In this document: positions 113 through 9,234 of the stretch, one piece after another | Layout of the letters: each line of letters starts with the position of its first letter | How positions within the stretch are numbered: the first letter of the stretch is position 1 | Virus record (IMG/VR): IMGVR_UViG_3300042890_004094 | DNA: 64,000 nucleotides | Reading direction: 5' to 3' (one strand) | Source: a virus | Lineage: Duplodnaviria; Heunggongvirae; Uroviricota; Caudoviricetes | Notes under the pieces: generated by a model | What the model was told of the DNA's origin: nothing | What the model saw: the letters and a program-made list of their open reading frames with translations, nothing else | The model's database searches: none | Program-made: the position numbers and the translations under genes

Positions 113-2028
113 TGGCTTGGATAGATCTTGCAGATAATCAAATGGTAAGCTTTACAGATGCACAAGGTGGTGGTTTTACACTACTTTCAGGTCAAAGTTC
201 GCTGAACTCAAACCAGTGTATGACTAAGGCTGATGCTTTAGGAAAGTATGACTTAGTTACTGCTAGTATGAGTGCATATCAGGACAATCAATTAGTTCCT
301 AAAATTACATGGGTTGCAAATTTGACAAACGGTTTTTGGGAATTAATAATTGATGTCACTAATCCCGGACAAAAATTTGGATTTAACATACCAACTGGTG
401 GATCACCTAGTATTAATATTGATTGGGGAGATACTAATACGTCAAATGTTACAAGTATAGGATTTGTAGAAAATACTTATGCTACACCGGGTACTTATTC
501 AGTAAAAACTTCCGGAAGTGCGTCTAGTATTAGTATTGCTTTAGTAACCGGTAATTGTGGACCATTGGTATTAAGTACATCTAAAATATCTGGAATAAGT
601 GGTTTGGGATCACTGCCAGAGTTATTCAAAGGATGTACTAATTTAACAAGTATTCCTTCAGATTTATTTAGTGATCTTACTGCGGTTCAAAATTTTTATG
701 GAACGTTTGTGGGTTGTACATCTTTAACTAGCATTCCTGGAAACCTATTTACTAACAATGTAAATGCTCTCCTTTTTAATTATACATTCTGGAATTGTAC
801 AGGTTTAACTGGTAGTATACCTGCAGGTTTATTTGATAATTGTCCGTCAGTAAATTCGTTCCAAGCCACATTCTATAATTGTACAGGTTTAACTGGTAGT
901 ATACCTGCAGGTTTATTTGATAATTGTCCGCTTGTTACAAGATTTGATCAAACATTCTCTAATTGTTCAGATTTAACTGGTATACCTACTGGTTTATTTG
1001 ATAATAATGTACTTGTGGAACTTTTTGTTTTGACATTTGCTTATTGTACATCTTTAACTAGTATACCTTCAGGTTTATTTGATAATTGCCCGGCTGTTAC
1101 AATGTTTTCACAAACATTCGCTGGTACAGGTTTAACTGGTAGTATACCTGTCGATTTATTTGATAATAATGTAAACGTTTACACTTTTTCTGGTGCATTC
1201 GCGCAGTGTGTATCTTTAACTAGCATACCTTCAGGTTTATTTGATACTAATTCAAATGTACTCGATTTTAGTTTTTTATTCAATGGTTGTTTCTCATTAG
1301 ATAGCATACCTGGGGGTTTATTTGATAATAATGAACTTGTTACAAATTTTTCTGGTGTATTTCAAAATTGTACATCTTTAACTAGCATCCCTGTGGGCTT
1401 ATTTGATAATAATGTACTTGTGGACAATTTTCAACAAGCATTCTATACTTGTTCAGATTTAACTGGAAGTATACCAACAGGTTTATTTGATAATAATGAA
1501 CTTGTTACAAATTTTTCTGCGACATTCAGGGATTGTACATCTTTAACTAGTATACCTACAGGTTTATTTGATAATAATGAACTTGTTATAAATTTTAGTT
1601 ATACATTTAATAACTGTGCTTCTTTAACTAGTATACCTGCGGGATTATTTGATAATAATGTAAATGTTACAACATTCCTAGCGATATTCTCAAGTTGTGT
1701 AAATTTGACTACAGTTCCTAGTAATTTATTTGTACCACTTTCTTCTTCTTCCATTAATTTTAATAGTGTATTTAGAGATTGCCGTAGCTTGGTACAGACT
1801 CCTGATATATTTGGTACTTCATATTCTACAACGTTCTTAAATAAAAATGTAAACTTCGGATCGGCATTTGAATTAGATAACTCTTACTTGGGTGCTACTA
1901 TTGGAGTAGCACCCGAATTATGGTCATTTGATTATGGTACCGGTTCTGCTACTAAAACTGATTGTTGGCAAGGTCATAGTACATCTTCCGTATCTAATTA
2001 TGCGTCAATACCAGGAGTATGGACATAG
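112..2028 (+). CDS. BspA-type leucine-rich-repeat protein
   Basis: 638-aa ORF with about 16 tandem ~23-aa units of the form C-T-S-L-T-S-I-P-x-G-L-F-D-N-N; near-identical 69-nt DNA repeats, e.g. 799-849 vs 868-918. Confidence 0.8.
   Translation: MAWIDLADNQMVSFTDAQGGGFTLLSGQSSLNSNQCMTKADALGKYDLVTASMSAYQDNQLVPKITWVANLTNGFWELIIDVTNPGQKFGFNIPTGGSPSINIDWGDTNTSNVTSIGFVENTYATPGTYSVKTSGSASSISIALVTGNCGPLVLSTSKISGISGLGSLPELFKGCTNLTSIPSDLFSDLTAVQNFYGTFVGCTSLTSIPGNLFTNNVNALLFNYTFWNCTGLTGSIPAGLFDNCPSVNSFQATFYNCTGLTGSIPAGLFDNCPLVTRFDQTFSNCSDLTGIPTGLFDNNVLVELFVLTFAYCTSLTSIPSGLFDNCPAVTMFSQTFAGTGLTGSIPVDLFDNNVNVYTFSGAFAQCVSLTSIPSGLFDTNSNVLDFSFLFNGCFSLDSIPGGLFDNNELVTNFSGVFQNCTSLTSIPVGLFDNNVLVDNFQQAFYTCSDLTGSIPTGLFDNNELVTNFSATFRDCTSLTSIPTGLFDNNELVINFSYTFNNCASLTSIPAGLFDNNVNVTTFLAIFSSCVNLTTVPSNLFVPLSSSSINFNSVFRDCRSLVQTPDIFGTSYSTTFLNKNVNFGSAFELDNSYLGATIGVAPELWSFDYGTGSATKTDCWQGHSTSSVSNYASIPGVWT
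649..1750 (+). repeat. Tandem ~69-bp coding repeats (LRR units) inside the 112..2028 gene
   Basis: Repeated tgtac/agatttaactggtagtatacctgcaggtttatttgataat... units visible by eye. Confidence 0.7.
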
Positions 2029-2037
2029 AAATTGTTG

Positions 2038-2122
2038 AAGAGAGTAAGGGAATCGAACCCTACCCAGTTTCCCGGGCGTCTCGCTTAGCAGGCGGACCCT
2101 ATCACCATCAAGGTTTACTCTC
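2038..2122 (-). tRNA. tRNA-Ser(GCT), type II (long variable arm)
   Basis: Reverse complement GGAGAGT...GGGTTCGATTCCC...ACTCTCT; anticodon loop CTGCTAA; variable-arm hairpin CCCGG-GAAA-CTGGG. Confidence 0.7.
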
Positions 2123-2133
2123 CATATTTTGTA

Positions 2134-2216
2134 GTGAGCAAGGGAATCGAACCCTATACATCTAAACGTACGCACTGCTTTCCAGGCAGACCCTATCACC
2201 ATCAAGGATTACTCAC
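2134..2216 (-). tRNA. tRNA-Ser(GGA), type II
   Basis: D-arm identical to previous tRNA; anticodon loop CTGGAAA; T-arm GGGTTCGATTCCC. Confidence 0.6.
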
Positions 2217-2226
2217 TATGTTGTTG

Positions 2227-2313
2227 CGGAGAAAACAGGGCTCGAACCTGCACACCAGTTTCCCGATACCGGTTTTCAAGACCGGGGCGATACCAATTAC
2301 GCTTTACTTCTCC
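2227..2313 (-). tRNA. tRNA-Ser(TGA), type II
   Basis: Reverse complement GGAGAAG...CCGGT-CTTGAAA-ACCGG...GGTTCGAGCCC...TTTCTCC. Confidence 0.7.
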
Positions 2314-2324
2314 AAGTAATTTAG

Positions 2325-2408
2325 AAGAGAGTGTGGGACTCGAACCCACAAAGGTATTACCCTTTACTAGTTTTCAAAACTAGGCCTTCATCCAGCCAGT
2401 TACTCTCC
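2325..2408 (-). tRNA. tRNA-Ser(TGA) second copy, type II
   Basis: Reverse complement GGAGAGT...CTAGT-TTTGAAA-ACTAG...GGGTTCGAGTCCCAC...ACTCTCT. Confidence 0.6.
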
Positions 2409-2417
2409 ATATATTTG

Positions 2418-2489
2418 TGATTCCAGAGGGAATCGAACCCCCACCTGATCGTTCGTAGCGACCTATCCTATCCGTTAAACGATGGAACC
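2418..2489 (-). tRNA. tRNA-Arg(ACG)
   Basis: Reverse complement GGTTCCA...GGTCG-CTACGAA-CGATC...GGGGGTTCGATTCCC...TGGAATC. Confidence 0.7.
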
Positions 2490-2496
2490 AATTAAA

Positions 2497-2536
2497 AACA
2501 AAAAACCCACAAACTTTGAAGTCTGTGGGTTTCATA
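2497..2536. terminator. Hairpin with flanking T/A runs (factor-independent terminator candidate; minus-strand reading gives stem then TTTTTTGTTTTT)
   Basis: aacccacaaac-tttgaa-gtctgtgggtt preceded on the plus strand by aaaaacaaaaaa. Confidence 0.5.
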
Positions 2537-2553
2537 CTAATTTTTTATATCAA

Positions 2554-2631
2554 TTATGAACACAACAGAACCTCCCTCAAATTACTTGAGCGACTAGACG
2601 AACTTGACGATGTTGTGATAATTGTTTTCAT
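2554..2631 (-). CDS. Micro-ORF (25 aa, MKTIITTSSSSSSRSSNLREVLLCS) directly fused to the conserved promoter-like motif; may instead be a small RNA
   Basis: ATG immediately follows TTTTAATATATAAATAAT on the minus strand; terminated by the hairpin at 2497-2536; a related copy lies at 3695-3805. Confidence 0.25.
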   Translation of the reverse strand: MKTIITTSSSSSSRSSNLREVLLCS

Positions 2632-2636
2632 ATTAT

Positions 2637-2653
2637 TTATATATTAAAATTTT
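2637..2653 (-). promoter_or_regulatory. Conserved AT-rich promoter-like motif (minus-strand reading AAAATTTTAATATATAA)
   Basis: Member of a TTTTAATATATA family that recurs upstream of at least 10 genes in this window. Confidence 0.45.
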
Positions 2654-2675
2654 ATTCTTTGTTTTTATTTATTTG

Positions 2676-2809
2676 ATAGAAAGGTGGGACTCGAACCCAC
2701 AACCACGGCTTTAACAGAGCGAAGTAACTTATTTCATTGCTACTAAGAGTTTCTTAGAGAAAGACTGACTAAGTATGATTACGTGCTCTACCAATTGAGC
2801 TACTTTCTA
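2676..2809 (-). tRNA. tRNA-like gene interrupted by a ~58-nt insertion (possible intron); anticodon region reads TCATAC (possibly CAT)
   Basis: Canonical 5' half TAGAAAG-TA-GCTC-AATTGGTA-GAGC and canonical 3' half GTGGG-TTCGAGT-CCCAC-CTTTCTA form a perfect 7-bp acceptor, but are separated by about 58 extra nt; no 3' anticodon-stem partner found at the canonical place. Confidence 0.5.
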
Positions 2810-2813
2810 TTTG

Positions 2814-2884
2814 CACGTCGACTAGGGCTCGAACCTAGAACATTGGTTTTGGAGACCAAGATGATACCATTTCACTATCGACGT
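2814..2884 (-). tRNA. tRNA-Trp(CCA)
   Basis: Reverse complement ACGTCGA...TTGGT-CTCCAAA-ACCAA...CTAGGTTCGAGCCCTAG-TCGACGT. Confidence 0.7.
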
Positions 2885-2891
2885 GTTTTGG

Positions 2892-2965
2892 GTTGACAGA
2901 CGGGACTTGAACCCGCAATCCCTTGGTTCACAACCAAGTGCTTTAACCAATTAAGCTACCATCAA
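2892..2965 (-). tRNA. tRNA-His(GTG)
   Basis: Reverse complement TTGATGG...CTTGG-TTGTGAA-CCAAG...GCGGGTTCAAGTCCCGT-CTGTCAA, discriminator C. Confidence 0.65.
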
Positions 2966-2967
2966 AG

Positions 2968-3042
2968 TGACCCCGGTGAGACTCGAACTCACAACCCCCG
3001 CATTAAAAGTGCGGTGCTCTAAACCAATTGAGCTACGAAGTC
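2968..3042 (-). tRNA. tRNA-Lys(TTT)
   Basis: Reverse complement GACTTCG-TAGCTCAATTGG...CCGCA-CTTTTAA-TGCGG...GTGAGTTCGAGTCTCAC-CGGGGTC. Confidence 0.7.
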
Positions 3043-3052
3043 ATTATTATTG

Positions 3053-3124
3053 TGCGGACTGACGGAATCGAACCGACCTCTTAGGGACTTCACTCCTACG
3101 CTAAACCGTCTCAGCTAAATCCGC
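3053..3124 (-). tRNA. tRNA, anticodon uncertain (loop GTGAAGT, possibly GAA/Phe-like; imperfect stems)
   Basis: Reverse complement GCGGATT...GGTTCGATTCC...AGTCCGC has a perfect acceptor and T-loop; the anticodon stem has a mismatch. Confidence 0.5.
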
Positions 3125-3130
3125 AATTTT

Positions 3131-3205
3131 GGGTGAAAGACGGGGATCGAACCCGCGACAACTTGAACCACAATCAAGCACTCTACCACTGAGCTACAAT
3201 CACCA
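3131..3205 (-). tRNA. tRNA-His(GTG)-like second copy (G-1 and C73 present, two T-T mismatches in acceptor stem; possibly degenerate)
   Basis: Reverse complement G-GTGATTG-TAGCTCAGTGGTAGAG...CTTGA-TTGTGGT-TCAAG...GCGGGTTCGATCCCCGT-CTTTCAC-C. Confidence 0.5.
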
Positions 3206-3211
3206 TGTTTG

Positions 3212-3284
3212 TGGACCCTCAGGGAATCGAGCCCTGTCCTTTGGATTTTCAGTCCAACGTACGCACCAGCTATACGAAAGGTCC
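3212..3284 (-). tRNA. tRNA-Phe(GAA)
   Basis: Reverse complement GGACCTT...TTGGA-CTGAAAA-TCCAA...CAGGGCTCGATTCCCTG-AGGGTCC. Confidence 0.65.
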
Positions 3285-3294
3285 ATTATATTTG

Positions 3295-3367
3295 CACAAG
3301 CCAAGGGAGTCGAACCCTTTCCATCCGAGGTTTTGGAGACCTGGTGCATACCATTATGCTGACCTGT
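3295..3367 (-). tRNA. tRNA-Trp(CCA)-like second copy (one mismatched pair in anticodon stem)
   Basis: Reverse complement ACAGGTC...CAGGT-CTCCAAA-ACCTC...AAGGGTTCGACTCCCTT-GGCTTGT; D-loop AATGGTAT shared with the other Trp gene. Confidence 0.5.
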
Positions 3368-3376
3368 ATATATTTG

Positions 3377-3469
3377 AAGAAAGAAGAGTATCGAAACTCT
3401 TAGGGGATATCTCCACGACTAGCCTACCTCTCGGATTCGAACCGAGACCTCTTCAACCTGACTTTCTTT
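3377..3469 (-). tRNA. Aberrant 93-nt tRNA-like element (candidate Ser-CGA type II tRNA with unusually long variable region, or a tRNA remnant)
   Basis: Perfect 7-bp acceptor AAGAAAG/CTTTCTT; internal CTCGG-TTCGAAT-CCGAG stem-loop and a second T-arm-like AAGAG-TTTCGATA-CTCTT; does not fold canonically. Confidence 0.35.
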
Positions 3470-3471
3470 TG

Positions 3472-3544
3472 TGATCCCGGTGGGGCTCGAACCCACAACC
3501 TTCTGATTAAAAGTCAGAAGCTCCACCAATTGAGCTACGAAATC
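3472..3544 (-). tRNA. tRNA-Lys(TTT) second copy
   Basis: Reverse complement GATTTCG-TAGCTCAATTGGTGGAGC...TCTGA-CTTTTAA-TCAGA...GTGGGTTCGAGCCCCAC-CGGGATC. Confidence 0.65.
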
Positions 3545-3549
3545 ATTAG

Positions 3550-3622
3550 TTCCCCCGCCGGGAGTCGAACCCGGCCCCATAGGTTAAAAGCCTATTGCCT
3601 ACTACCAGTTTGCTACGAGGGA
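3550..3622 (-). tRNA. tRNA-Lys(TTT) third copy
   Basis: Reverse complement TCCCTCG...ATAGG-CTTTTAA-CCTAT...GGCCGGGTTCGACTCCCGGC-GGGGGA. Confidence 0.6.
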
Positions 3623-3631
3623 TTATAAAAT

Positions 3632-3670
3632 AAAAAAACCCGAACTTTTTTATAAGTTCGGGTTTACGTT
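3632..3670. terminator. Strong hairpin with flanking A/T runs (bidirectional factor-independent terminator candidate upstream of the tRNA array)
   Basis: aaaaaaacccgaacttttttataagttcgggtttacgttt. Confidence 0.6.
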
Positions 3671-3694
3671 TATGCTTTATTCTCTTTTATGACA

Positions 3695-3805
3695 TTATCC
3701 TATAATAACATCTTCTTTTGAGAACGACATACTCATACATCCGAACTTGTGGCTAAACCACTTGAACGACTTACTAAAGCTTGTATGTTTGAAATTTGTT
3801 CTCAT
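3695..3805 (-). CDS. Micro-ORF (36 aa, MRTNFKHTSFSKSFKWFSHKFGCMSMSFSKEDVIIG), a related copy of 2554..2631; may be a small RNA
   Basis: ATG fused to TTTTAATATATATAACA on the minus strand, followed by the 3632-3670 terminator. Confidence 0.25.
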   Translation of the reverse strand: MRTNFKHTSFSKSFKWFSHKFGCMSMSFSKEDVIIG

Positions 3806-3807
3806 TG

Positions 3808-3826
3808 TTATATATATTAAAAGTTT
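3808..3826 (-). promoter_or_regulatory. Conserved promoter-like motif (minus-strand AAACTTTTAATATATATAA)
   Basis: Same motif family as 2637-2653. Confidence 0.45.
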
Positions 3827-3895
3827 ATTCTCTCTTTTTGTTTTTTTGTTATTTTTATAGTACAAAAGTAATAAAAGTTTACTTATCTACCTAAT

Positions 3896-4090
3896 TTATT
3901 TTAATTTATTTTTAATTTTCTCTGCAATCTTCTCTAAACTTGATTTAGAAGTCTCTTTCTGTTTTGGAAATCTACCATGATTTCCCATACTATCATAGTC
4001 AGTACATTCATACGCACTAGGTGACGGTAGTCCACTATAGTGACAGAATTCTTCTTCACTAAGTATTTCTTTTTTATCTTCTTTTTTCAT
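3896..4090 (-). CDS. Hypothetical small protein (64 aa)
   Basis: ORF only; no recognisable motif. Confidence 0.35.
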   Translation of the reverse strand: MKKEDKKEILSEEEFCHYSGLPSPSAYECTDYDSMGNHGRFPKQKETSKSSLEKIAEKIKNKLK

Positions 4091-4140
4091 ACTATAAATA
4101 TACTACTTTATTTTATTCTACCAAACTTTAATACAAAAAA

Positions 4141-7100
4141 TTATCGTTTTAGTGTAAAATGTCCTTTATGTATTCTACCATCATTTCTGTAAGCAACGAA
4201 CCAGTAATCATTAGAAAATATCTGATTTCCATTGTAGGTTCCATCCCATCCTTGGCTAGTTGAATTAAATGATGTAATTATTTTACCATAACGATCATAA
4301 ATAATAACTTTAAAATCAGGTTCATTTTCAGAATCTTTAATTCTCCAATAATCATTATATCCATCATTATTGGGAGTAAAGAATTTGTCATAGTAAAGCA
4401 GCCAAATAACTTGACTAGTGATCCCACAATTAGCTTTATCTCTTACATAAACAGTGTATAATCCGGTAGTTAAATTATCAAAGTAGTTTTCATTTTGGTA
4501 TGTAACATTATCTAGAGAATATTCAAAGGTTCCATTACCAGATGTAATTACTGTAATAGTGTTTTCTCTAGCGGTCCAATCTGATATTTCAATACTTTCA
4601 ATAACTGGTGGTCCAGAAATGATTACATTAATACTCTGACTATTACTACAAGCCAATCCATTATAAGTATTTGTGGCGGTAACTGTTAGATTTGTTATAC
4701 CAATATCAGTAATACTAATAGATGGAGTTGTTTCACCATTAGACCAAATATAGGTAGTTGAAGACAAATTATTAGATGTAGCATCAATAATAGTAGGATT
4801 GGTTGTGCAATTCAAATAGTTTTGACTTAGATTCAAATTTGGTATTTTTCCCACAATTAAATTAAATGTTCTTAATTCATAGCAATTAGGTAAAGAGTTA
4901 AGTATAATTTTAGCATAAATAAGTTGTGGATTTATAGAAGGATTAAAACTTACTAAGTTTGTAATTTGATTAGTACCACTTTGTGCATCACTTAACGTAG
5001 TATAATAGGTTATAGTATAATTACTTACTATTTGTGTTCCTAGAATTACAGAATTCTGTTGTGATAAATTAAAAGTTTCATTATTAGTAATAATAGTTTT
5101 ACATTGAAGTAAATCACTAGGATTATTTATCAAAATAAAAGACTCAAGTATACTTACATCAAAAAATCGGTTAACTATATTACCACAATTATCTTCTATT
5201 TGAAAAAGGTAAATTGCTGGATCTAAATTAGAAAAAGTATTTGAAGTACCATTATCAAAAAAGAAAGGTAAACCATTTTTTTGTATAAGAGTATATGTCA
5301 ATGGTGCAGTTCCACTTGCCTCAACAAAAACATCTAAAGCACCGTTTGTAGAGCAAGGTAATCGATAAACATCAATAAATTCTAAAGATTCATTATAACT
5401 TAATGGTTCTAATATTTCAATACAATTTTTATCGGCATTATTTACGTCTGTAGAATTCCAGTCACTTCCATTTTGGAATGATAAAAAAGAACGAACAATT
5501 CGAAAATCGCCATTAGAACTAAAATTAAAATTGGTAGTATTGTTTATTAGGACAATTGAGTTATTTGTATTTGGAATAGTACCATCAGTATAAACTAGAT
5601 TTGTACTAGGATTTCCCCAAGTATTAGTAACCGGATCAATCAATTTTTGTAACCAAAAAGTTTCATTTGATGTTCCATTACTCACAAAGTCTAGTGCAAT
5701 ATCAAAAGAACCACAGTTAGGAACCAATGAAAAATTGGAAGAAGTGATTGTATAACCTTGTAAAATTATGTTAGTAGTATTAGTTAAGTTACATTCATCA
5801 GTTCCAATAAAAGTATAATTTCCTGCAGGAAGATTATTCATATAAAAAATACCATCAGGTGCAATGTTATAAGACACATTTAATGGAAGATTAAAATTAA
5901 ACGTACTAGGAGCTGCTGTAATAATAATAGATGTCAATTTTGAATTCAAACTTTCAATTTTAACTGCACTAGTATTCAAGTCACAACCATTTCTTATAGA
6001 ATTAGATAAACCTTTATCTACATAGGCAGGAACAACAACTGTAATAGGTGTTAAAATATCATTACAAGTATTTGTTAATTCAATTATATAATTTCCTAAC
6101 GGAACTGGATTTAATATAATTGTACCATTATTAATTAAAGAGGTTATATTATGTGGTAAAGTGAAAGGATAATCAGATGGTGCAGAGGTTACTAATCCAG
6201 TTGTGATAATATATCCGGGTATGCTTATATTTATCTTTCCTGTTGTAGTCAGACATCCATTGTGTGATCCTGTTACACTTGGAATAGGTGGTCGATTTAT
6301 TATCGTAAAAGAAATATTTTTAGTATTACCACAAGAATCTGTAATAGTAGCATCATAAGTTCCTATGGGTGTAGGTAATGTTGTATTTCCAAAAGACACA
6401 CTGTTTTGATTATAGGGACCTGGATAGGAGTCATTAAAAACTAGAGGATTAAAACCAGTTGGAAAAGAATTAAAGTTTATAGTATAAGGAGGATAAAAAT
6501 TTGAAAGATTAAATGTAAAAAAGTTTTTGTTACAATCTAAACGGGTTGTAGTGTTGGTTAGGTTTATTCCATTGTTTACAACAAAATTTGTTGAAGAATA
6601 GGTTGAATTACATGCATCAGTAATAGATATTGAGTAACTAAAAGTTTGATTAATGTAATTTGTCATGTTTTGTACCAAATTTTGTTGTGTTAAACCTCCA
6701 GAATTTAAAGTACTATTCAATATAATTGGTACACCTCCAGGTGGTAAAATAGTGTAAGTAATGTTTAACGGATAACCAATAACAGTTCCAGTTGCAGCAG
6801 TTAAGGTATTAGTAACTGAAACTAAGTTACAATTAGATAATTGAGTAATTTGAGGTTGTCCAATTGTAATACCAGTTGTGTTTTGAACGGTTGTAAAAGT
6901 TGTTACAACTCCAATTCCACAATTATCAAAAACTCTAATCTTATAAACACCGATAGGTAAATTAGAAAAAGTATTGGAACTCTGTGATGGAAACAATAAA
7001 GGTCCATTAAATATTTCATAAGAAGCAGGTGTTCCGGTCAGTGTATTTACAGTAATTGTACTTGTGTTAGAACATGCTTGATTTAAAGTTTGAATGTTAT

Positions 7101-7798: not shown

Positions 7799-8002
7799 AT
7801 GCCGGCTCAATCGAAACAGCAACTAAAGTATATTTATGCAATGCGTAATAAATATAAAAACAAGAAAAGTGCTCCTAAACATATGAAGTGGGTATTTAAC
7901 AAAGATTGGACCCAAGACGTTAAAGCCAGTGGGTTACCAACCAAAGTTAAAAGTTTTCAAACTTATGTAAGTGAAAACTATGATGCTTCGACTAAGAAGT
8001 AA
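7799..8002 (+). CDS. Hypothetical small basic protein (67 aa)
   Basis: Lys-rich ORF; 3' end overlaps the convergent tyrS by 25 nt. Confidence 0.4.
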   Translation: MPAQSKQQLKYIYAMRNKYKNKKSAPKHMKWVFNKDWTQDVKASGLPTKVKSFQTYVSENYDASTKK

Positions 8003-9234
8003 CTTTTCTTACCTCTTTGTAGTATGATAAACTTATCATTTATCAAATCAACATCTGTTACGATGTAATCCTCTTCTCTTTTTATTTTATTTATTGCAAC
8101 TGAATTTTCTTTTAAAGCTCTTCTAGCTTCATTATTTGATTTTAAGAAACCTGTTTTAAATAGAATGTCTGTCATTGTAATGCCTACAAGAATTTCTTCC
8201 ATAGGAACTTTCGCTTGTGGTATTCCATTAAATACATCTAAGAATAATTCTTCATCAAGTAAGTTTAAATCTCCACCATTAAATAAAATGTTAGAAGCTT
8301 CTAGTGCTTTTTCAAACTCTTGCTGACCGTGAACCATAATAGTTATTTCTCTTGCTAATTTTTTTTGTAACAAAAATAAGTTCTTTGCTTTATTATGTTC
8401 TTCTATTAAATTATCAATAGTTTCTTTATCTAAAAATGTAAAGATTTTAATGTATTTCTCTGCATCATTATCATCGGTATTTATCCAAAATTGGTAAAAC
8501 TTGTACACAGAGGTCTTATCTTTATCTAACCATATATTTGTACCTCCTTCAGATTTTCCGAACTTAGAACCATCCGATTTAGTTAGTAAAGGACATGTCA
8601 TAGCAAATGCTTCCCTACCAGGATTCATTTTGTGAATTAGTTCAGTTCCTGTTGTAATGTTACCCCATTGATCTGAACCACCCATTTGTAATAAGCAGTT
8701 ATGTTCTTTATTTAGATGGTAGAAATCGTATCCTTGAATCAACTGGTACGTAAATTCTGTGAAAGACATTCCTTCACCTTCAATACGATTTTTCACAGAT
8801 TGTTTAGATAACATGTAATTTACAGTAATTCTTTTACCAATGTCTCTTACAAAGTCTATGAAACTAAATTTTGACATCCAATCGTAGTTATTTACTACAG
8901 GAGTATCACCTAAAAATCTTGTTAGTGTATTTCTAATACCTTCGACATTTTTATTAAGTGTTTCTTCGTCTAATAGATTTCTTTCATTTGACTTACCAGA
9001 GGGGTCACCGATCATACCAGTGGCACCTCCAACAAGTGCGATAGGATTGTGTCCAAAATTCTTCATATGTTTTAAAAGAATGATTGGAACTAAACTACCG
9101 ATATGTAGAGAATCTGACGTTGGATCAAAACCGATATAAGAGGTGGTGGCTTCTTTTAAAAGTTGAGCCTCCGTTCCTGGTATTATATCGTGTACCAACC
9201 CACGCCATTTTAATTCTTCTACTATATTTTTCAT
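7978..9234 (-). CDS. tyrS: Tyrosyl-tRNA synthetase, bacterial type
   Basis: GFDPTSDSLHIGSLVP (HIGH-region), GGATGMIGDP, GGSDQWGNIT and KFGKSEGG (KMSKS-like) motifs; C-terminal S4-like region. Confidence 0.9.
   Translation of the reverse strand: MKNIVEELKWRGLVHDIIPGTEAQLLKEATTSYIGFDPTSDSLHIGSLVPIILLKHMKNFGHNPIALVGGATGMIGDPSGKSNERNLLDEETLNKNVEGIRNTLTRFLGDTPVVNNYDWMSKFSFIDFVRDIGKRITVNYMLSKQSVKNRIEGEGMSFTEFTYQLIQGYDFYHLNKEHNCLLQMGGSDQWGNITTGTELIHKMNPGREAFAMTCPLLTKSDGSKFGKSEGGTNIWLDKDKTSVYKFYQFWINTDDNDAEKYIKIFTFLDKETIDNLIEEHNKAKNLFLLQKKLAREITIMVHGQQEFEKALEASNILFNGGDLNLLDEELFLDVFNGIPQAKVPMEEILVGITMTDILFKTGFLKSNNEARRALKENSVAINKIKREEDYIVTDVDLINDKFIILQRGKKSYFLVEAS

What the first reader, a model, noticed from the sequence alone, without database searches (positions are those of the whole stretch)
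3377..3469. Aberrant 93-nt tRNA-like element with two T-arm-like hairpins
A perfect 7-bp acceptor (AAGAAAG/CTTTCTT) encloses a canonical-looking stem-loop CTCGG-TTCGAAT-CCGAG. That stem-loop reads either as a T-arm or as a Ser-CGA anticodon arm. A second T-arm-like hairpin and about 27 nt of extra sequence are also enclosed. It cannot be a normal tRNA, because a normal 5' half would overlap the neighbouring Lys gene.
Basis: seen in the sequence. Interest (0 to 1): 0.5.

Follow-up and report, generated by a model that had tools for sequence, protein, structure and literature searches.

The report
Degenerate tRNA-like relic in phage array
The 92-base element is real and clearly derived from a transfer RNA, but no tRNA detector accepts it and every close relative of this huge phage lacks it, so it is most likely a broken tRNA copy that arrived with an intact lysine tRNA and not a new kind of working RNA.

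Summary
On the minus strand, 3377-3468, a perfect 7-bp helix (AAGAAAG/CTTTCTT) encloses CTCGG-TTCGAAT-CCGAG, a 28-nt middle segment and a second TTCGA hairpin next to the 3' strand. It lies in a minus-strand tRNA array of a low-GC huge phage. The order of modules is that of a long-variable-arm (class II) tRNA with a CGA (Ser) anticodon. A CGA anticodon loop with U32 automatically reads TTCGA, which explains the 'two T-arms'. The D region is too short to form a stem, the T-loop has 6 or 8 bases instead of 7, and the fold is no more stable than shuffles. Rfam (4227 families, E<=10) and ARAGORN (default, 80%, intron, organellar) find nothing. No single deletion, and none of the 1-3-nt D-region insertions tried, rescues it. 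Four independent close relatives have Lys3 directly followed by Trp2; the window alone carries a 173-nt insertion made of an intact tRNA-Lys plus this element. No homologue was found, only a weak full-length resemblance to a conserved 92-93-nt two-hairpin family in other viral contigs. Best reading: a strain-specific degenerate or chimeric tRNA relic, co-transcribed with the array. A functional tRNA-like RNA is not excluded. More interesting things lie nearby: short peptide ORFs plus terminators whose amino-acid content matches the tRNAs downstream, and a conserved insert-bearing tRNA(CAT).

The parts
3377..3468 (-). The element X: a 92-nt tRNA-derived sequence with the module order closing helix, short 5' linker, CGA-loop hairpin, 28-nt middle segment, T-arm-like hairpin, closing helix. 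The discriminator position would be C3376.
   Evidence: Sequence. No ARAGORN call and no Rfam hit at E<=10. Folding z-score +0.87, against -0.7 to -1.8 for neighbouring tRNAs. It is the best hit in the window (25.5 bits) to a model of a class-II-like two-hairpin family, but ordinary tRNAs elsewhere score the same.
3462..3468 (-). 5' strand of the closing (acceptor-like) helix, AAGAAAG, followed by T at the U8 position.
   Evidence: This strand and its 5' flank match those of the conserved insert-bearing tRNA Y (AAATAGAAAGT against AAAAAGAAAGT).
3377..3383 (-). 3' strand of the closing helix, CTTTCTT.
   Evidence: The 3' strand plus flank, CTTTCTT-C-AAATAT, resembles Y's CTTTCTA-T-CAAATA. A perfect end-closing helix arises in 2.4% of shuffles.
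3430..3446 (-). Hairpin 1, CTCGG-TTCGAAT-CCGAG (extendable to 6 bp with T/A). It sits at the anticodon-arm position; the loop reads U32 U33 C34 G35 A36 A37 U38, which gives anticodon CGA (Ser, codon TCG), and at the same time matches the T-loop consensus.
   Evidence: BLAST hits are only to T-arms of unrelated phage tRNAs. MAFFT aligns it with the anticodon arms of long-arm tRNAs. Analogous hairpins occur in L050 and L180, and the L180 element is called tRNA-Ser(cga).
3447..3461 (-). 5' linker TCAGGTTGAAGAGGT (15 nt) where the D-arm should be. It is too short and has no complementary strands to form a D-stem.
   Evidence: ARAGORN can build a D-stem only from G.U pairs at 60-70% of its thresholds. 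No 1-3-nt insertion here rescues a tRNA call.
3402..3429 (-). Middle segment AGGTAGGCTAGTCGTGGAGATATCCCCT (28 nt) at the variable-arm position. It contains only a weak GGA-GATA-TCC hairpin (3403-3414 region).
   Evidence: It is unique in the window even allowing 3 mismatches. It is longer than the variable arms of the window's own Ser tRNAs.
3384..3401 (-). Hairpin 2, the T-arm. Read as AAGAG-TTTCGATA-CTCTT it has an 8-nt loop and abuts the closing helix. Read as AGAGT-TTCGAT-ACTCT it has a 6-nt loop and leaves a 1-nt bulge. Neither reading gives the canonical 7-nt T-loop.
   Evidence: It resembles the AGAGG-TTCGATT-CCTCT T-arm of the two-hairpin family.
3376..3548 (-). The 173-nt window-specific insertion, TAAT + tRNA-Lys(UUU) 'Lys2' (3471-3544) + AAA + X. 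It is absent from four independent close relatives.
   Evidence: Alignment A4. blastn shows window 3129-3376 = L101 at 99.2% and 3546-4113 = L101 at 91%, with the two L101 segments abutting. Lys2 is an excellent tRNA (69 bits).

Best explanation
X is a degenerate tRNA-derived sequence, either a pseudo-tRNA or a recombination relic, in a fast-rearranging tRNA array of a huge phage. Shown: it keeps the module order of a long-variable-arm (class II) tRNA with a CGA (serine) anticodon loop. Shown: each junction is off. The D region is 2-5 nt too short and cannot pair, the middle segment is over-long with almost no stem, and the T-loop has 6 or 8 nt instead of 7. Shown: it entered this genome together with an intact tRNA-Lys as one 173-nt insertion between two tRNA genes that are adjacent in every close relative. 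Inferred: its outer shell (flank plus both strands of the closing helix) derives from the same stock as the conserved insert-bearing tRNA Y at 2676-2809. Inferred: its core derives from a two-hairpin, CGA-loop class-II-like gene of the kind found in other viral contigs, which would make X a chimera produced by recombination between tandem tRNA genes. Inferred: X has no promoter or terminator of its own and lies between genes of one sub-array, so it is probably co-transcribed. When RNase P and the 3' processing enzymes release its neighbours, it would be freed as a fragment of about 100 nt. Its acceptor/T-arm minihelix may even be trimmed like a tRNA. It is unlikely to be aminoacylated or to decode.
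For: (1) tRNA ancestry and strand: TTCRANY hairpins are 8 observed against 0.004 expected in the array and all lie on the minus strand. MAFFT places X's modules on the anticodon arm, variable arm and T-arm of long-arm tRNAs. The class-II-like model R1 picks X as the best hit in 64 kb. (2) Not a working tRNA: Rfam gives no hit at E<=10 for any of 4227 families, including tRNA, tRNA-Sec and tmRNA. ARAGORN is negative at default thresholds, at 80%, with introns and with organellar models; it gives only a forced 'tRNA-Pro + 12-nt intron' at 60-70%. The folding z-score is +0.87, against -0.7 to -1.8 for six genuine neighbours and -1.25 for Y. None of about 5000 single deletions and none of 3 x 1428 D-region insertions, with or without T-loop repair, gives a default tRNA call, whereas 550 deletions of Y do. 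(3) Not conserved: L097, L100/L040, L101 and L102 have Lys3, a 5-8 nt spacer, then Trp2. L098/L099 and L104-L106 also lack it. The flanks are 99% and 91% identical to L101. There are no hits to X substrings in IMG/VR, the GTDB genomes or GenBank phages. (4) The arrays do generate relics: L104 6559-6717 holds a His-5'/Lys-3' chimera, gene content differs between close relatives, and HNH endonuclease genes sit inside or next to the relatives' arrays. (5) Possible sources of the parts: the acceptor and flanks resemble Y's. The only full-length nhmmer alignments of X are to the two-hairpin family, with 63/93 identity to its consensus against 46-55/93 for the window's Ser tRNAs.
Against: The closing helix is perfect over 7 bp and hairpin 1 is perfect over 5-6 bp, which is more order than a long-decayed pseudogene usually keeps (closing helix 2.4% by chance). 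This fits a recent origin, but it also fits selection. Its partner in the insertion, Lys2, is fully intact. The lineage maintains other non-canonical tRNA-like genes under selection: Y has an invariant insert and a compensatory acceptor change, and there are long-arm Lys, His and Trp genes. A conserved two-hairpin family exists elsewhere. Oddness alone therefore does not prove loss of function. All copies of X that I could find are 100% identical, so selection on X itself could not be measured. No donor sequence was found, so the chimera scenario is an inference.
Confidence: 0.6

Rival explanations
1. X is a functional non-canonical tRNA-like RNA, a diverged member of an undescribed class of phage RNAs. 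The class would have a closing helix, no or a minimal D-arm, a hairpin whose loop is U-U-C-G-A-R-U, a very long middle segment and a T-arm. RNase P and the CCA-adding enzyme would process it out of the array transcript. It would then act either as a specialised tRNA-Ser(CGA) for the rare TCG codon or as a decoy or competitor for a tRNA-binding host factor.
For: The same layout recurs in unrelated viral contigs. One 92-93-nt family is clearly conserved, with 11 distinct sequences in at least 17 loci and three compensatory T-stem pairs. X has the same length, and the similarity is reciprocal though weak: R1 gives 25.5 bits as the best hit in the window, nhmmer gives full-length alignments only to that family, and identity to the consensus is 63/93. 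X shares the 10-mer AGTCAGGTTG with the family. The window has Ser GGA, TGA x2 and GCT but no other CGA. TCG makes up 2.2% of Ser codons in the window's ORFs but 2 of 7 and 2 of 9 Ser codons in the two leader ORFs. The perfect helices are intact.
Against: True family members score 105-121 bits, while ordinary 72-nt tRNAs reach 25-29 bits against the same model, so X's score shows tRNA-likeness and not membership. In the family register X's AGUCAG no longer pairs with its 3' end. nhmmer E-values are 0.12-2.6. X is absent from all close relatives, which have the same leader peptides and TCG codons. The T-loop is not 7 nt. The fold is no better than shuffles.
Confidence: 0.22
2. X is an ordinary tRNA interrupted by one insert or intron that is removed after transcription, like the insert-bearing tRNA(CAT) Y in the same array.
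For: Insert-bearing tRNAs exist and are conserved in this lineage: Y has a 51-56-nt insert. At 60-70% thresholds ARAGORN can force a tRNA-Pro(AGG) with a 12-nt intron.
Against: Deleting every contiguous segment of 1-60 nt at every position gave 0 default-threshold tRNA calls, while the same procedure on Y gave 550. The forced solution needs a D-stem made almost entirely of G.U pairs and splits the perfect hairpin 1.
Confidence: 0.04
3. Hairpin 1 plus the following AGGTAGG-C is the displaced 3' end (T-arm plus acceptor strand) of a cellular or phage tRNA left by site-specific integration, that is, an att-site-type fragment, and the rest is unrelated spacer.
For: GAGGT-CTCGG-TTCGAAT-CCGAG-AGGTAGG looks like a variable loop, T-arm and 3' acceptor strand. 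BLAST matches this stretch to the T-arm region of tRNA-Ile/Met/Leu genes of other phages at 92-93% over 25-28 nt.
Against: No exact match to CTCGGTTCGAATCCGAGAGGTAG in 185,579 species' genomes, and none to the 24-nt string CTCGGTTCGAATCCGAGAGGTAGG in IMG/VR. No integrase or mobile element lies next to it; the insertion is only 173 nt and consists of two tRNA-like units. This reading does not explain the closing helix or the second hairpin abutting it.
Confidence: 0.05
4. The feature belongs to the plus strand, either as part of ORF 3205-3474 or as an antisense RNA, or it is a chance arrangement of hairpins.
For: A mechanical ORF of 89 aa spans it on the plus strand. The plus-strand fold has z = -1.28.
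Against: The ORF runs antisense through conserved tRNA genes and is broken by the indel in the relatives. Both TTCGA loops and the position of the T-arm next to the 3' strand fit only the minus strand. The plus-strand z-score is unremarkable, with 24 of 200 shuffles folding as well. The chance expectation for the hairpin is 0.004.
Confidence: 0.02

Closest known systems
tRNA pseudogenes and chimeric tRNA relics in tandem tRNA gene arrays
   Same: X is tRNA-derived, lies on the same strand and at the same spacing as its neighbours, has disabling indels at the arm junctions, is not detected by tRNA models and differs in presence between strains. A clear His/Lys chimera lies in a relative's array (L104).
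   Different: X keeps two perfect helices. No parent gene could be identified, so its pseudogene status is inferred from structure and non-conservation and not from comparison with an intact orthologue.
Class II tRNA-Ser with anticodon CGA
   Same: The module order is the same. The anticodon loop YU-CGA-AN reads TTCGAAT when position 32 is U. There is a long segment between the anticodon arm and the T-arm. L180 5716-5806, which has the same two-TTCGA-hairpin look, is called tRNA-Ser(cga) by default ARAGORN.
   Different: X has no D-stem, a 28-nt middle segment with only a weak 3-bp hairpin, a 6- or 8-nt T-loop and C at the discriminator position. Neither ARAGORN nor Rfam calls it.
The 92-93-nt 'AGTCAGG' two-hairpin family found here in IMG/VR contigs (model R1). 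It is not in Rfam and not in GenBank phages.
   Same: The length and layout are the same. X shares the string AGTCAGGTTG, a similar hairpin 1 (TCGGTTCGA.TCCGA) and a similar T-arm. It has 63/93 identity to the consensus, and the search hits are reciprocal best hits.
   Different: X scores 25.5 bits against 105-121 for members. In the family register its acceptor is broken, and its actual closing helix is shifted 5 nt. The middle segment is unrelated.
allo-tRNAs and other non-canonical cloverleaf tRNAs (Mukai et al. 2017, PMC5389517)
   Same: These are unusual tRNA-like genes with long variable arms found in bacteria and their phages. Standard tRNA detectors often miss or mis-assign them, and they may be regulatory rather than decoding.
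   Different: allo-tRNAs are defined by 8/4 or 9/3 acceptor/T-stem geometry and keep well-formed D and anticodon arms. X has a 7-bp closing helix plus a 5-bp T-stem with an off-size loop and no D-arm. I read only the abstract of that paper.
Small stable RNAs (species 1 and 2) encoded in the phage T4 tRNA gene cluster (from my own knowledge, not checked here)
   Same: They are non-tRNA RNAs co-transcribed and co-processed with a phage tRNA cluster, with tRNA-like ends and unknown function. The T4 tRNA region also houses a homing endonuclease gene, as the relatives' arrays do here (HNH genes).
   Different: The T4 species are conserved among T4-like phages and are known to accumulate. X is strain-specific and there are no expression data for it.

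Membership tests
Canonical tRNA (Rfam RF00005; ARAGORN) | 7-bp acceptor helix formed by the 5' and 3' ends | tested here: met
   AAGAAAG/CTTTCTT forms a perfect helix, 3468-3462 with 3383-3377.
Canonical tRNA (Rfam RF00005; ARAGORN) | D-arm (3-4-bp stem plus loop) between position 9 and the anticodon stem | tested here: not met
   Only 15 nt (TCAGGTTGAAGAGGT) lie there, with no complementary strands. RNAfold leaves them unpaired. ARAGORN needs G.U-only pairs at 60-70% thresholds.
Canonical tRNA (Rfam RF00005; ARAGORN) | 5-bp anticodon stem with a 7-nt loop, U33 and a purine at 37 | tested here: met
   CTCGG-TTCGAAT-CCGAG has U33, anticodon CGA and A37.
Canonical tRNA (Rfam RF00005; ARAGORN) | 5-bp T-stem with a 7-nt TPsiCRA loop stacked directly on the acceptor | tested here: not met
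   The loop is 8 nt if the stem abuts the acceptor, or 6 nt with a 1-nt bulge.
Canonical tRNA (Rfam RF00005; ARAGORN) | Covariance-model or detector score above threshold | tested here: not met
   No Rfam hit at E<=10. ARAGORN is negative at default, 80%, intron and organellar settings. tRNAscan-SE was not available.
Class II tRNA-Ser | Long variable arm with a stable stem (the main SerRS identity element; established knowledge) | tested here: inconclusive
   A 28-nt segment is present, but it has only a 3-bp GGA/TCC hairpin and an optional TAGG/CCTA closure. RNAfold does not favour a defined arm.
Class II tRNA-Ser | Aminoacylation by seryl-tRNA synthetase | not testable with these tools
   This needs an in vitro charging assay.
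tRNA-Sec (RF01852) and tmRNA (RF00023) | 8/5 or 9/4 acceptor/T geometry with a UCA anticodon; or a tRNA-like domain plus a tag reading frame | tested here: not met
   There is no Rfam hit to either model in 3377-3469, ARAGORN finds no tmRNA, and the loop reads CGA, not UCA.
tRNA with a single intron or insert (like Y, 2676-2809) | Removal of one contiguous segment restores a canonical cloverleaf | tested here: not met
   None of about 5000 deletion variants was called, against 550 for Y.
   X scores 25.5 bits against 105-121 for members, and ordinary tRNAs reach 25-29. Two of six acceptor pairs are broken in the model alignment.
   X is 92 nt against 92-93 nt for members. The only full-length nhmmer alignments of X are to this family. 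Identity to the consensus is 63/93, against 46-55/93 for the Ser tRNAs.
Any maintained RNA gene | Conservation in related genomes, ideally with compensatory changes | tested here: not met
   X is absent from L097, L100/L040, L101, L102, L098/L099 and L104-L106. The only other copies are 100% identical assemblies of the same population.

The most novel reading that the evidence does not exclude
X is a working member of an undescribed class of phage tRNA-like RNAs in which the D-arm is dispensed with, the anticodon-position hairpin carries a T-loop-like UUCGAAU loop and a very long middle segment replaces the variable arm. It would be processed from the array transcript by RNase P and the CCA-adding enzyme. 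It would then serve either as a dedicated reader of the rare TCG codon, which is over-represented in the leader ORFs that precede the tRNA sub-arrays, or as a decoy for a host tRNA-targeting defence nuclease.
Probability: 0.15. Interest if true: 0.65.

Novelty: new member of a known kind. Interest (0 to 1): 0.27.

Why it matters
On its own the element matters little. It is one more example of the debris that rapid recombination leaves in phage tRNA arrays, and it warns that a CGA anticodon loop with U32 imitates a T-loop. Its value is as a pointer. Following it showed that these huge-phage arrays are highly fluid, with gene content differing between genomes whose flanks are 91-99% identical. 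They carry conserved non-canonical tRNA-like genes that standard tools miss or mis-assign. They are also preceded by short ORFs plus terminators whose amino-acid and rare-codon content mirrors the tRNAs downstream. If that last arrangement is regulatory, it would be a way for a phage to switch on its own tRNA genes when the matching host tRNAs run short, and I found no description of this.

Tried and rejected
(1) Flanking proteins as anchors in IMG/VR. The 1093-aa gene gave nothing. The 638-aa gene gave three loci without the array.

(2) Exact-protein look-ups returned the same genome at 100% identity (L007/L103), so they gave no information on variation.

(3) Exact scans for three X substrings in IMG/VR and in GTDB genomes gave no hits. 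A scan for Lys2's own sequence, meant to find the donor, also gave none.

(4) BLAST of X against GenBank phages gave only 25-28-nt T-arm matches.

(5) I pairwise-aligned X with Y and with the L001 element just 5' of Trp. No convincing similarity was found beyond the acceptor and flank.

(6) I tested whether X is the decayed orthologue of L001's long-arm tRNA-Lys that follows the Lys2 orthologue. MAFFT aligns the modules, but sequence similarity is weak. This remains undecided.

(7) L104's 'tRNA-Ser(cga)' is a different aberrant gene unrelated to X.

(8) I first took the R1 hit (E = 3e-5) as evidence of family membership. I withdrew that after ordinary tRNAs scored equally in other loci.

(9) Covariation could not decide between hairpin 1 and ARAGORN's alternative D-arm/anticodon-arm fold of the two-hairpin family, because hairpin 1 is invariant in the sample.

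(10) Classical attenuation for the leader ORFs. Folding with the ribosome-covered part masked never replaced the terminator with an antiterminator.

(11) The plus-strand ORF and plus-strand RNA readings were rejected.
Full report
WHAT IS THERE. The window has about 28% G+C. Its nearest DNA relatives are two unannotated 'uncultured phage' genomes of 635 and 642 kb, LR745206 and LR756502, and a 433-kb ENA contig carries the same neighbouring genes. The window is therefore part of a huge-phage genome. Positions 2038-3622 hold a dense array of tRNA genes, all on the minus strand. ARAGORN finds 13, and Rfam adds one at 2038-2124, which I read by eye as tRNA-Ser(GCT). The finding occupies the only 103-nt gap in the upstream half of the array, between tRNA-Trp (3294-3367) and tRNA-Lys (3471-3544).

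THE OBSERVATION. Read on the minus strand, the element is AAGAAAG-TCAGGTTGAAGAGGT-CTCGG-TTCGAAT-CCGAG-AGGTAGGCTAGTCGTGGAGATATCCCCT-AAGAG-TTTCGATA-CTCTT-CTTTCTT. The helix spans 3377-3468, one base less than reported. Both TTCGA loops read correctly only on the minus strand. Perfect 5-bp stems with a TTCRANY loop occur eight times on the minus strand of the array, against 0.004 expected in shuffles of the array region, and only three times in the other 62 kb. Hairpin 1 is therefore tRNA-derived beyond reasonable doubt. A perfect 7-bp helix closing the ends of the spacer arises in 2.4% of dinucleotide shuffles.

IS IT A tRNA? No detector accepts it.
- Rfam, with all 4227 families and E<=10 on a 2.1-kb stretch, reports nothing in 3377-3469. 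The same scan scores most neighbouring tRNAs at 37-69 bits; tRNA-Trp at 3294-3367 gets only a 20.7-bit tRNA-Sec-model hit.
- ARAGORN is negative at default thresholds, at 80% thresholds, with introns allowed and with organellar (arm-less) models. Only at 60-70% of its thresholds does it force a 'tRNA-Pro(AGG) with a 12-nt intron', which needs a G.U D-stem and splits the perfect hairpin 1.
- The minimum-free-energy fold (-21.1 kcal/mol) is less stable than the mean of its own shuffles (z = +0.87). Six genuine neighbours give z = -0.7 to -1.8.
- Deleting every contiguous segment of 1-60 nt gave no default-threshold tRNA among about 5000 variants. The same procedure on the insert-bearing gene Y gave 550.
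- Repairing the T-loop and inserting every 1-3-nt string across the D region also gave none.
X is therefore neither a normal tRNA nor a normal tRNA with one insert.

WHY TWO 'T-ARMS'. MAFFT aligns X with the long-variable-arm tRNAs of this phage lineage. Hairpin 1 falls on the anticodon arm, the small middle hairpin on the variable arm and hairpin 2 on the T-arm. In that frame the loop of hairpin 1 is U32-U33-C34-G35-A36-A37-U38. A CGA (serine) anticodon loop with U at position 32 necessarily spells TTCGA and so imitates a T-loop. A descriptor scan of 0.96 Mb of phage loci, followed by a gapped scan of IMG/VR, found the same look repeatedly. In L050 the TTCGAGT hairpin follows a normal D-arm. 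In L180 default ARAGORN calls the element tRNA-Ser(CGA). X has the module order of a class II tRNA-Ser(CGA), but every junction is defective. The linker has 15 nt where 17-20 are needed and cannot form a D-stem. The 28-nt middle segment has only a 3-bp hairpin. The T-loop has 8 nt, or 6 nt with a bulge.

CONSERVATION. This is the strongest evidence. I anchored on the lineage-specific tRNA-Trp just 3' of X and recovered independent close relatives from metagenomes and IMG/VR.
- In L097, L100 (same contig as L040), L101 and L102 the order is: the same short upstream ORF, a terminator, tRNA-Lys ('Lys3'), a 5-8-nt A-rich spacer, then tRNA-Trp.
- The alignment shows a clean 173-nt insertion present only in the window: TAAT + tRNA-Lys 'Lys2' + AAA + X (window 3376-3548).
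- The flanks are 99.2% and 91% identical to L101, and the two L101 segments abut.
- L098/L099 have an ORF next to Trp instead. L104-L106, with 97% identical flanks, also lack X.
- The flanking tRNAs show compensatory T-stem changes among these genomes, as working tRNAs should.
- The only other copies of X are 100% identical assemblies of the same population, so selection on X itself cannot be measured.
- No part of X matches IMG/VR, GTDB genomes or GenBank phages beyond generic T-arm strings.

WHERE MIGHT IT COME FROM? There are two leads, and both are inference.
- First lead, the outer shell. Its flank plus both strands of the closing helix resemble those of Y, the gene at 2676-2809: AAATAGAAAGT...CTTTCTA-T-CAAATA against AAAAAGAAAGT...CTTTCTT-C-AAATAT.
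- Second lead, the core. It resembles a conserved 92-93-nt family found here in at least 17 viral contigs: AGTCAGG-TT-GGATACAAG-GTCGG-TTCGAGT-CCGAT-(35 nt)-AGAGG-TTCGATT-CCTCT-CCTGACT-A. The family has 11 distinct sequences and three compensatory T-stem pairs.
- Support for the second lead. A covariance model of that family, built without X, gives X as its best hit in the 64-kb window (25.5 bits, rough E about 3e-5), ahead of the true Ser tRNAs at 17 and 15 bits. With X as query, the only full-length nhmmer alignments in 1.95 Mb are to that family (E 0.12-2.6). Identity to the family consensus is 63/93, against 46-55/93 for the window's Ser tRNAs.
- Limits of the second lead. Real members score 105-121 bits, and ordinary 72-nt tRNAs in other loci reach 25-29 bits. 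X's AGUCAG no longer pairs with its 3' end in the family register. The data therefore allow 'remote or decayed relative' but do not establish membership.
- Relics do arise in these arrays. L104 contains a fusion of a His-like 5' half to the 3' half of the adjacent tRNA-Lys. Gene content differs between near-identical genomes. HNH endonuclease genes sit in or beside the relatives' arrays.

HOW IT MOST LIKELY WORKS. Shown: X has no promoter-like or terminator-like site of its own, and the only strong terminators on this strand precede the two sub-arrays. Inferred: X is transcribed as part of the sub-array precursor and released when RNase P and the 3' processing enzymes free Lys2 and Trp. Its closing helix stacked near a T-arm-like hairpin could let RNase P and the CCA-adding enzyme treat it as a minihelix. 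With no D-arm and an off-size T-loop it should not form the tRNA elbow, so charging and decoding are unlikely. I put 0.6 on a non-functional relic or chimera. I put about 0.2 on a functional tRNA-like RNA, whether a specialised TCG reader or a decoy. Small weights go to the intron, att-fragment and plus-strand readings.

COMPARISON WITH WHAT IS KNOWN. X works like, and is best filed as, a tRNA pseudogene or relic in a tandem array. It fails the membership tests for canonical tRNA, class II tRNA-Ser, tRNA-Sec, tmRNA, intron-bearing tRNA and the two-hairpin family; the membership table gives the details. allo-tRNAs (PMC5389517, abstract only) are the nearest published class of odd cloverleaf tRNAs in bacteria and phages, but their defining 8/4 or 9/3 geometry is not present in X. 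My literature searches found no description of two-TTCGA-hairpin phage tRNA-likes.

SIDE OBSERVATIONS. These seem more interesting than the element itself.
(a) Each sub-array is preceded by a short ORF and a strong intrinsic terminator about 10 nt before the first tRNA.
- Leader 1 (3695-3805, minus) encodes MRTNFKHTSFSKSFKWFSHKFGCMSMSFSKEDVIIG and precedes Lys, Lys, X, Trp, Phe, His, Phe, Lys, His, Trp and the CAT gene.
- Leader 2 (2554-2631, minus) encodes MKTIITTSSSSSSRSSNLREVLLCS and precedes Arg, Ser, Ser, Ser, Ser.
- The same pairing holds in every relative and in the distant L001 and L002. L001 also has MKTKLKYKR before four tRNA-Lys genes.
- Enrichment for the cognate amino acids has p of about 1e-4 to 1e-5 and is specific to each leader's own sub-array. 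The rare codon TCG (2.2% of Ser codons in the window's ORFs) supplies 2 of 7 and 2 of 9 Ser codons in the leaders.
- Rfam gives weak His/Thr-leader-like hits there.
- A simple stalled-ribosome folding found no antiterminator, so the mechanism is open. I found no precedent in the literature.
(b) Y (2676-2809) is a tRNA(CAT)-like gene with a 51-56-nt insert. The insert is nearly invariant in five genomes, and L101 shows a compensatory acceptor change.
(c) Many relatives carry Lys, His and Trp tRNAs with long variable-arm inserts.
(d) A widespread superfamily of tRNA-Leu-like genes has a fixed AGTCAGG/CCTGACT acceptor, a fixed D-arm and T-arm, and a hypervariable centre.

VERDICT. The interpretation 'aberrant tRNA-like element' is correct as a description. 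The evidence points to a strain-specific, degenerate, probably chimeric tRNA relic and not to a new functional RNA. Interest is low to moderate for the element itself. The array's regulation and its conserved non-canonical genes deserve their own follow-up.

Noticed in passing
window 3695-3805 (-) ORF with terminator 3636-3665 (-); window 2554-2631 (-) ORF with terminator 2502-2533 (-); also L001, L002, L097-L106: Each tRNA sub-array is preceded by a short ORF and a strong terminator. The peptide is enriched in exactly the amino acids of the tRNAs downstream: an F/K/H/W/M-rich leader before Lys-Trp-Phe-His-Met(CAT) genes, an S/R-rich leader before Arg-Ser genes, and MKTKLKYKR before four tRNA-Lys genes in L001. 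Enrichment p is about 1e-4 to 1e-5. The rare codons TCG and AGC are over-represented. The pairing is conserved in phages only ~70% identical in DNA. No antiterminator was found by simple folding, and no literature precedent was found.
   Followed up: partly
window 2676-2809 (-): 'Y' is a tRNA-like gene with a normal acceptor, D-arm and T-arm but a 51-56-nt insert in or replacing the anticodon arm. ARAGORN with introns calls it tRNA-Met(CAT) with a 54-nt intron at position 37. It is conserved in L098, L100, L101 and L102 with an almost invariant insert, and L101 shows a compensatory acceptor change. Default ARAGORN and Rfam tRNA miss it.
   Followed up: partly
window 2038-2124 (-): An 87-nt class II tRNA is missed by ARAGORN. 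Rfam scores it 40.4 bits on the tRNA-Sec model, below the gathering threshold. By eye the anticodon loop CTGCTAA gives tRNA-Ser(GCT).
   Followed up: no
L001 2047-2312, L002 1986-2255, L097 (93-nt Lys), L100 and L102 (89-nt His), L102 (91-nt Trp): Relatives carry tRNA-Lys, tRNA-His and tRNA-Trp genes with long variable-arm inserts (82-93 nt), a feature normally restricted to Ser/Leu/Tyr/Sec tRNAs. Their function is unknown; possibilities include identity switching and protection from tRNA-targeting nucleases.
   Followed up: partly
L029:4314-4406(-), L109:2390-2481, L121:13264-13356, L123:4870-4962, L130:1397-1489, L137:2774-2866(-), L142:2100-2192, L149:3801-3892, L151:4837-4929, L183:277-368, L203:4030-4122: A conserved 92-93-nt tRNA-like family has a D-arm-less 5' part, a GTCGG-TTCGAGT-CCGAT hairpin, a 35-nt middle segment and a covarying T-arm. 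It is not in Rfam (best hit tRNA-Sec at 21 bits) and is absent from GenBank phages. ARAGORN assigns it inconsistently as Pro(TGG) or as Ser(GGA) plus an intron.
   Followed up: partly
L064 3608-3690, 3900-3995, 8129-8238; L010 12861-12966; L027 3611-3718(-); L050 7035-7135(-); L066 720-813(-); L076 641-732(-); L088 6419-6539: A widespread superfamily of tRNA-Leu-like genes in viral contigs has a nearly fixed acceptor (AGTCAGG/CCTGACT-A), a Leu-type D-arm and the T-arm ACAGG-TTCGAATCC-TGT, but a hypervariable central region, giving 83-121 nt overall. Several copies can occur in one contig, and one member comes from the same metagenome as the window.
   Followed up: no
L104 6559-6717: A chimeric tRNA relic: the 5' half of a His-like tRNA is fused to the 3' half of the neighbouring tRNA-Lys (GGTGATTGTCTTCTAAAGGTTAGTATACCTCCC|AGACTACCGGATCGTACCCGGTCGGGGGAAC). 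An odd Trp-like gene precedes it.
   Followed up: no
L139 5862-5977, L206 11301-11416(-), L218 8840-8955(-), L029 ~4729-4821(-): 116-nt elements in which a complete tRNA body (D-arm, anticodon arm, first T-arm) is followed by about 34 nt and a second T-arm before the 3' acceptor strand. They are conserved across several contigs.
   Followed up: no
L098/L099 just 5' of tRNA-Trp; L104 6944-7795; L106 1002-1853: HNH endonuclease-like genes are inserted within or beside the tRNA arrays of close relatives, at places where the window has tRNA genes. They are a plausible driver of the array rearrangements.
   Followed up: no
window 7978-9234 (-) and neighbours; L104 762-1193: The array lies in a translation-related neighbourhood: a class-I aminoacyl-tRNA-synthetase-like gene (PF00579 plus the TyrRS C-terminal domain), a YqeY-like gene and, further on, SmpB. 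The adjacent 1093-aa protein has a CHU_C (type IX secretion-type) domain, which hints at a Bacteroidota host.
   Followed up: no
window 775-1676 (+), inside ORF 112-2028: The 638-aa ORF next to the array contains internal tandem repeats with a period of about 81-84 nt at ~72% identity, seen as self-hits in blastn.
   Followed up: no
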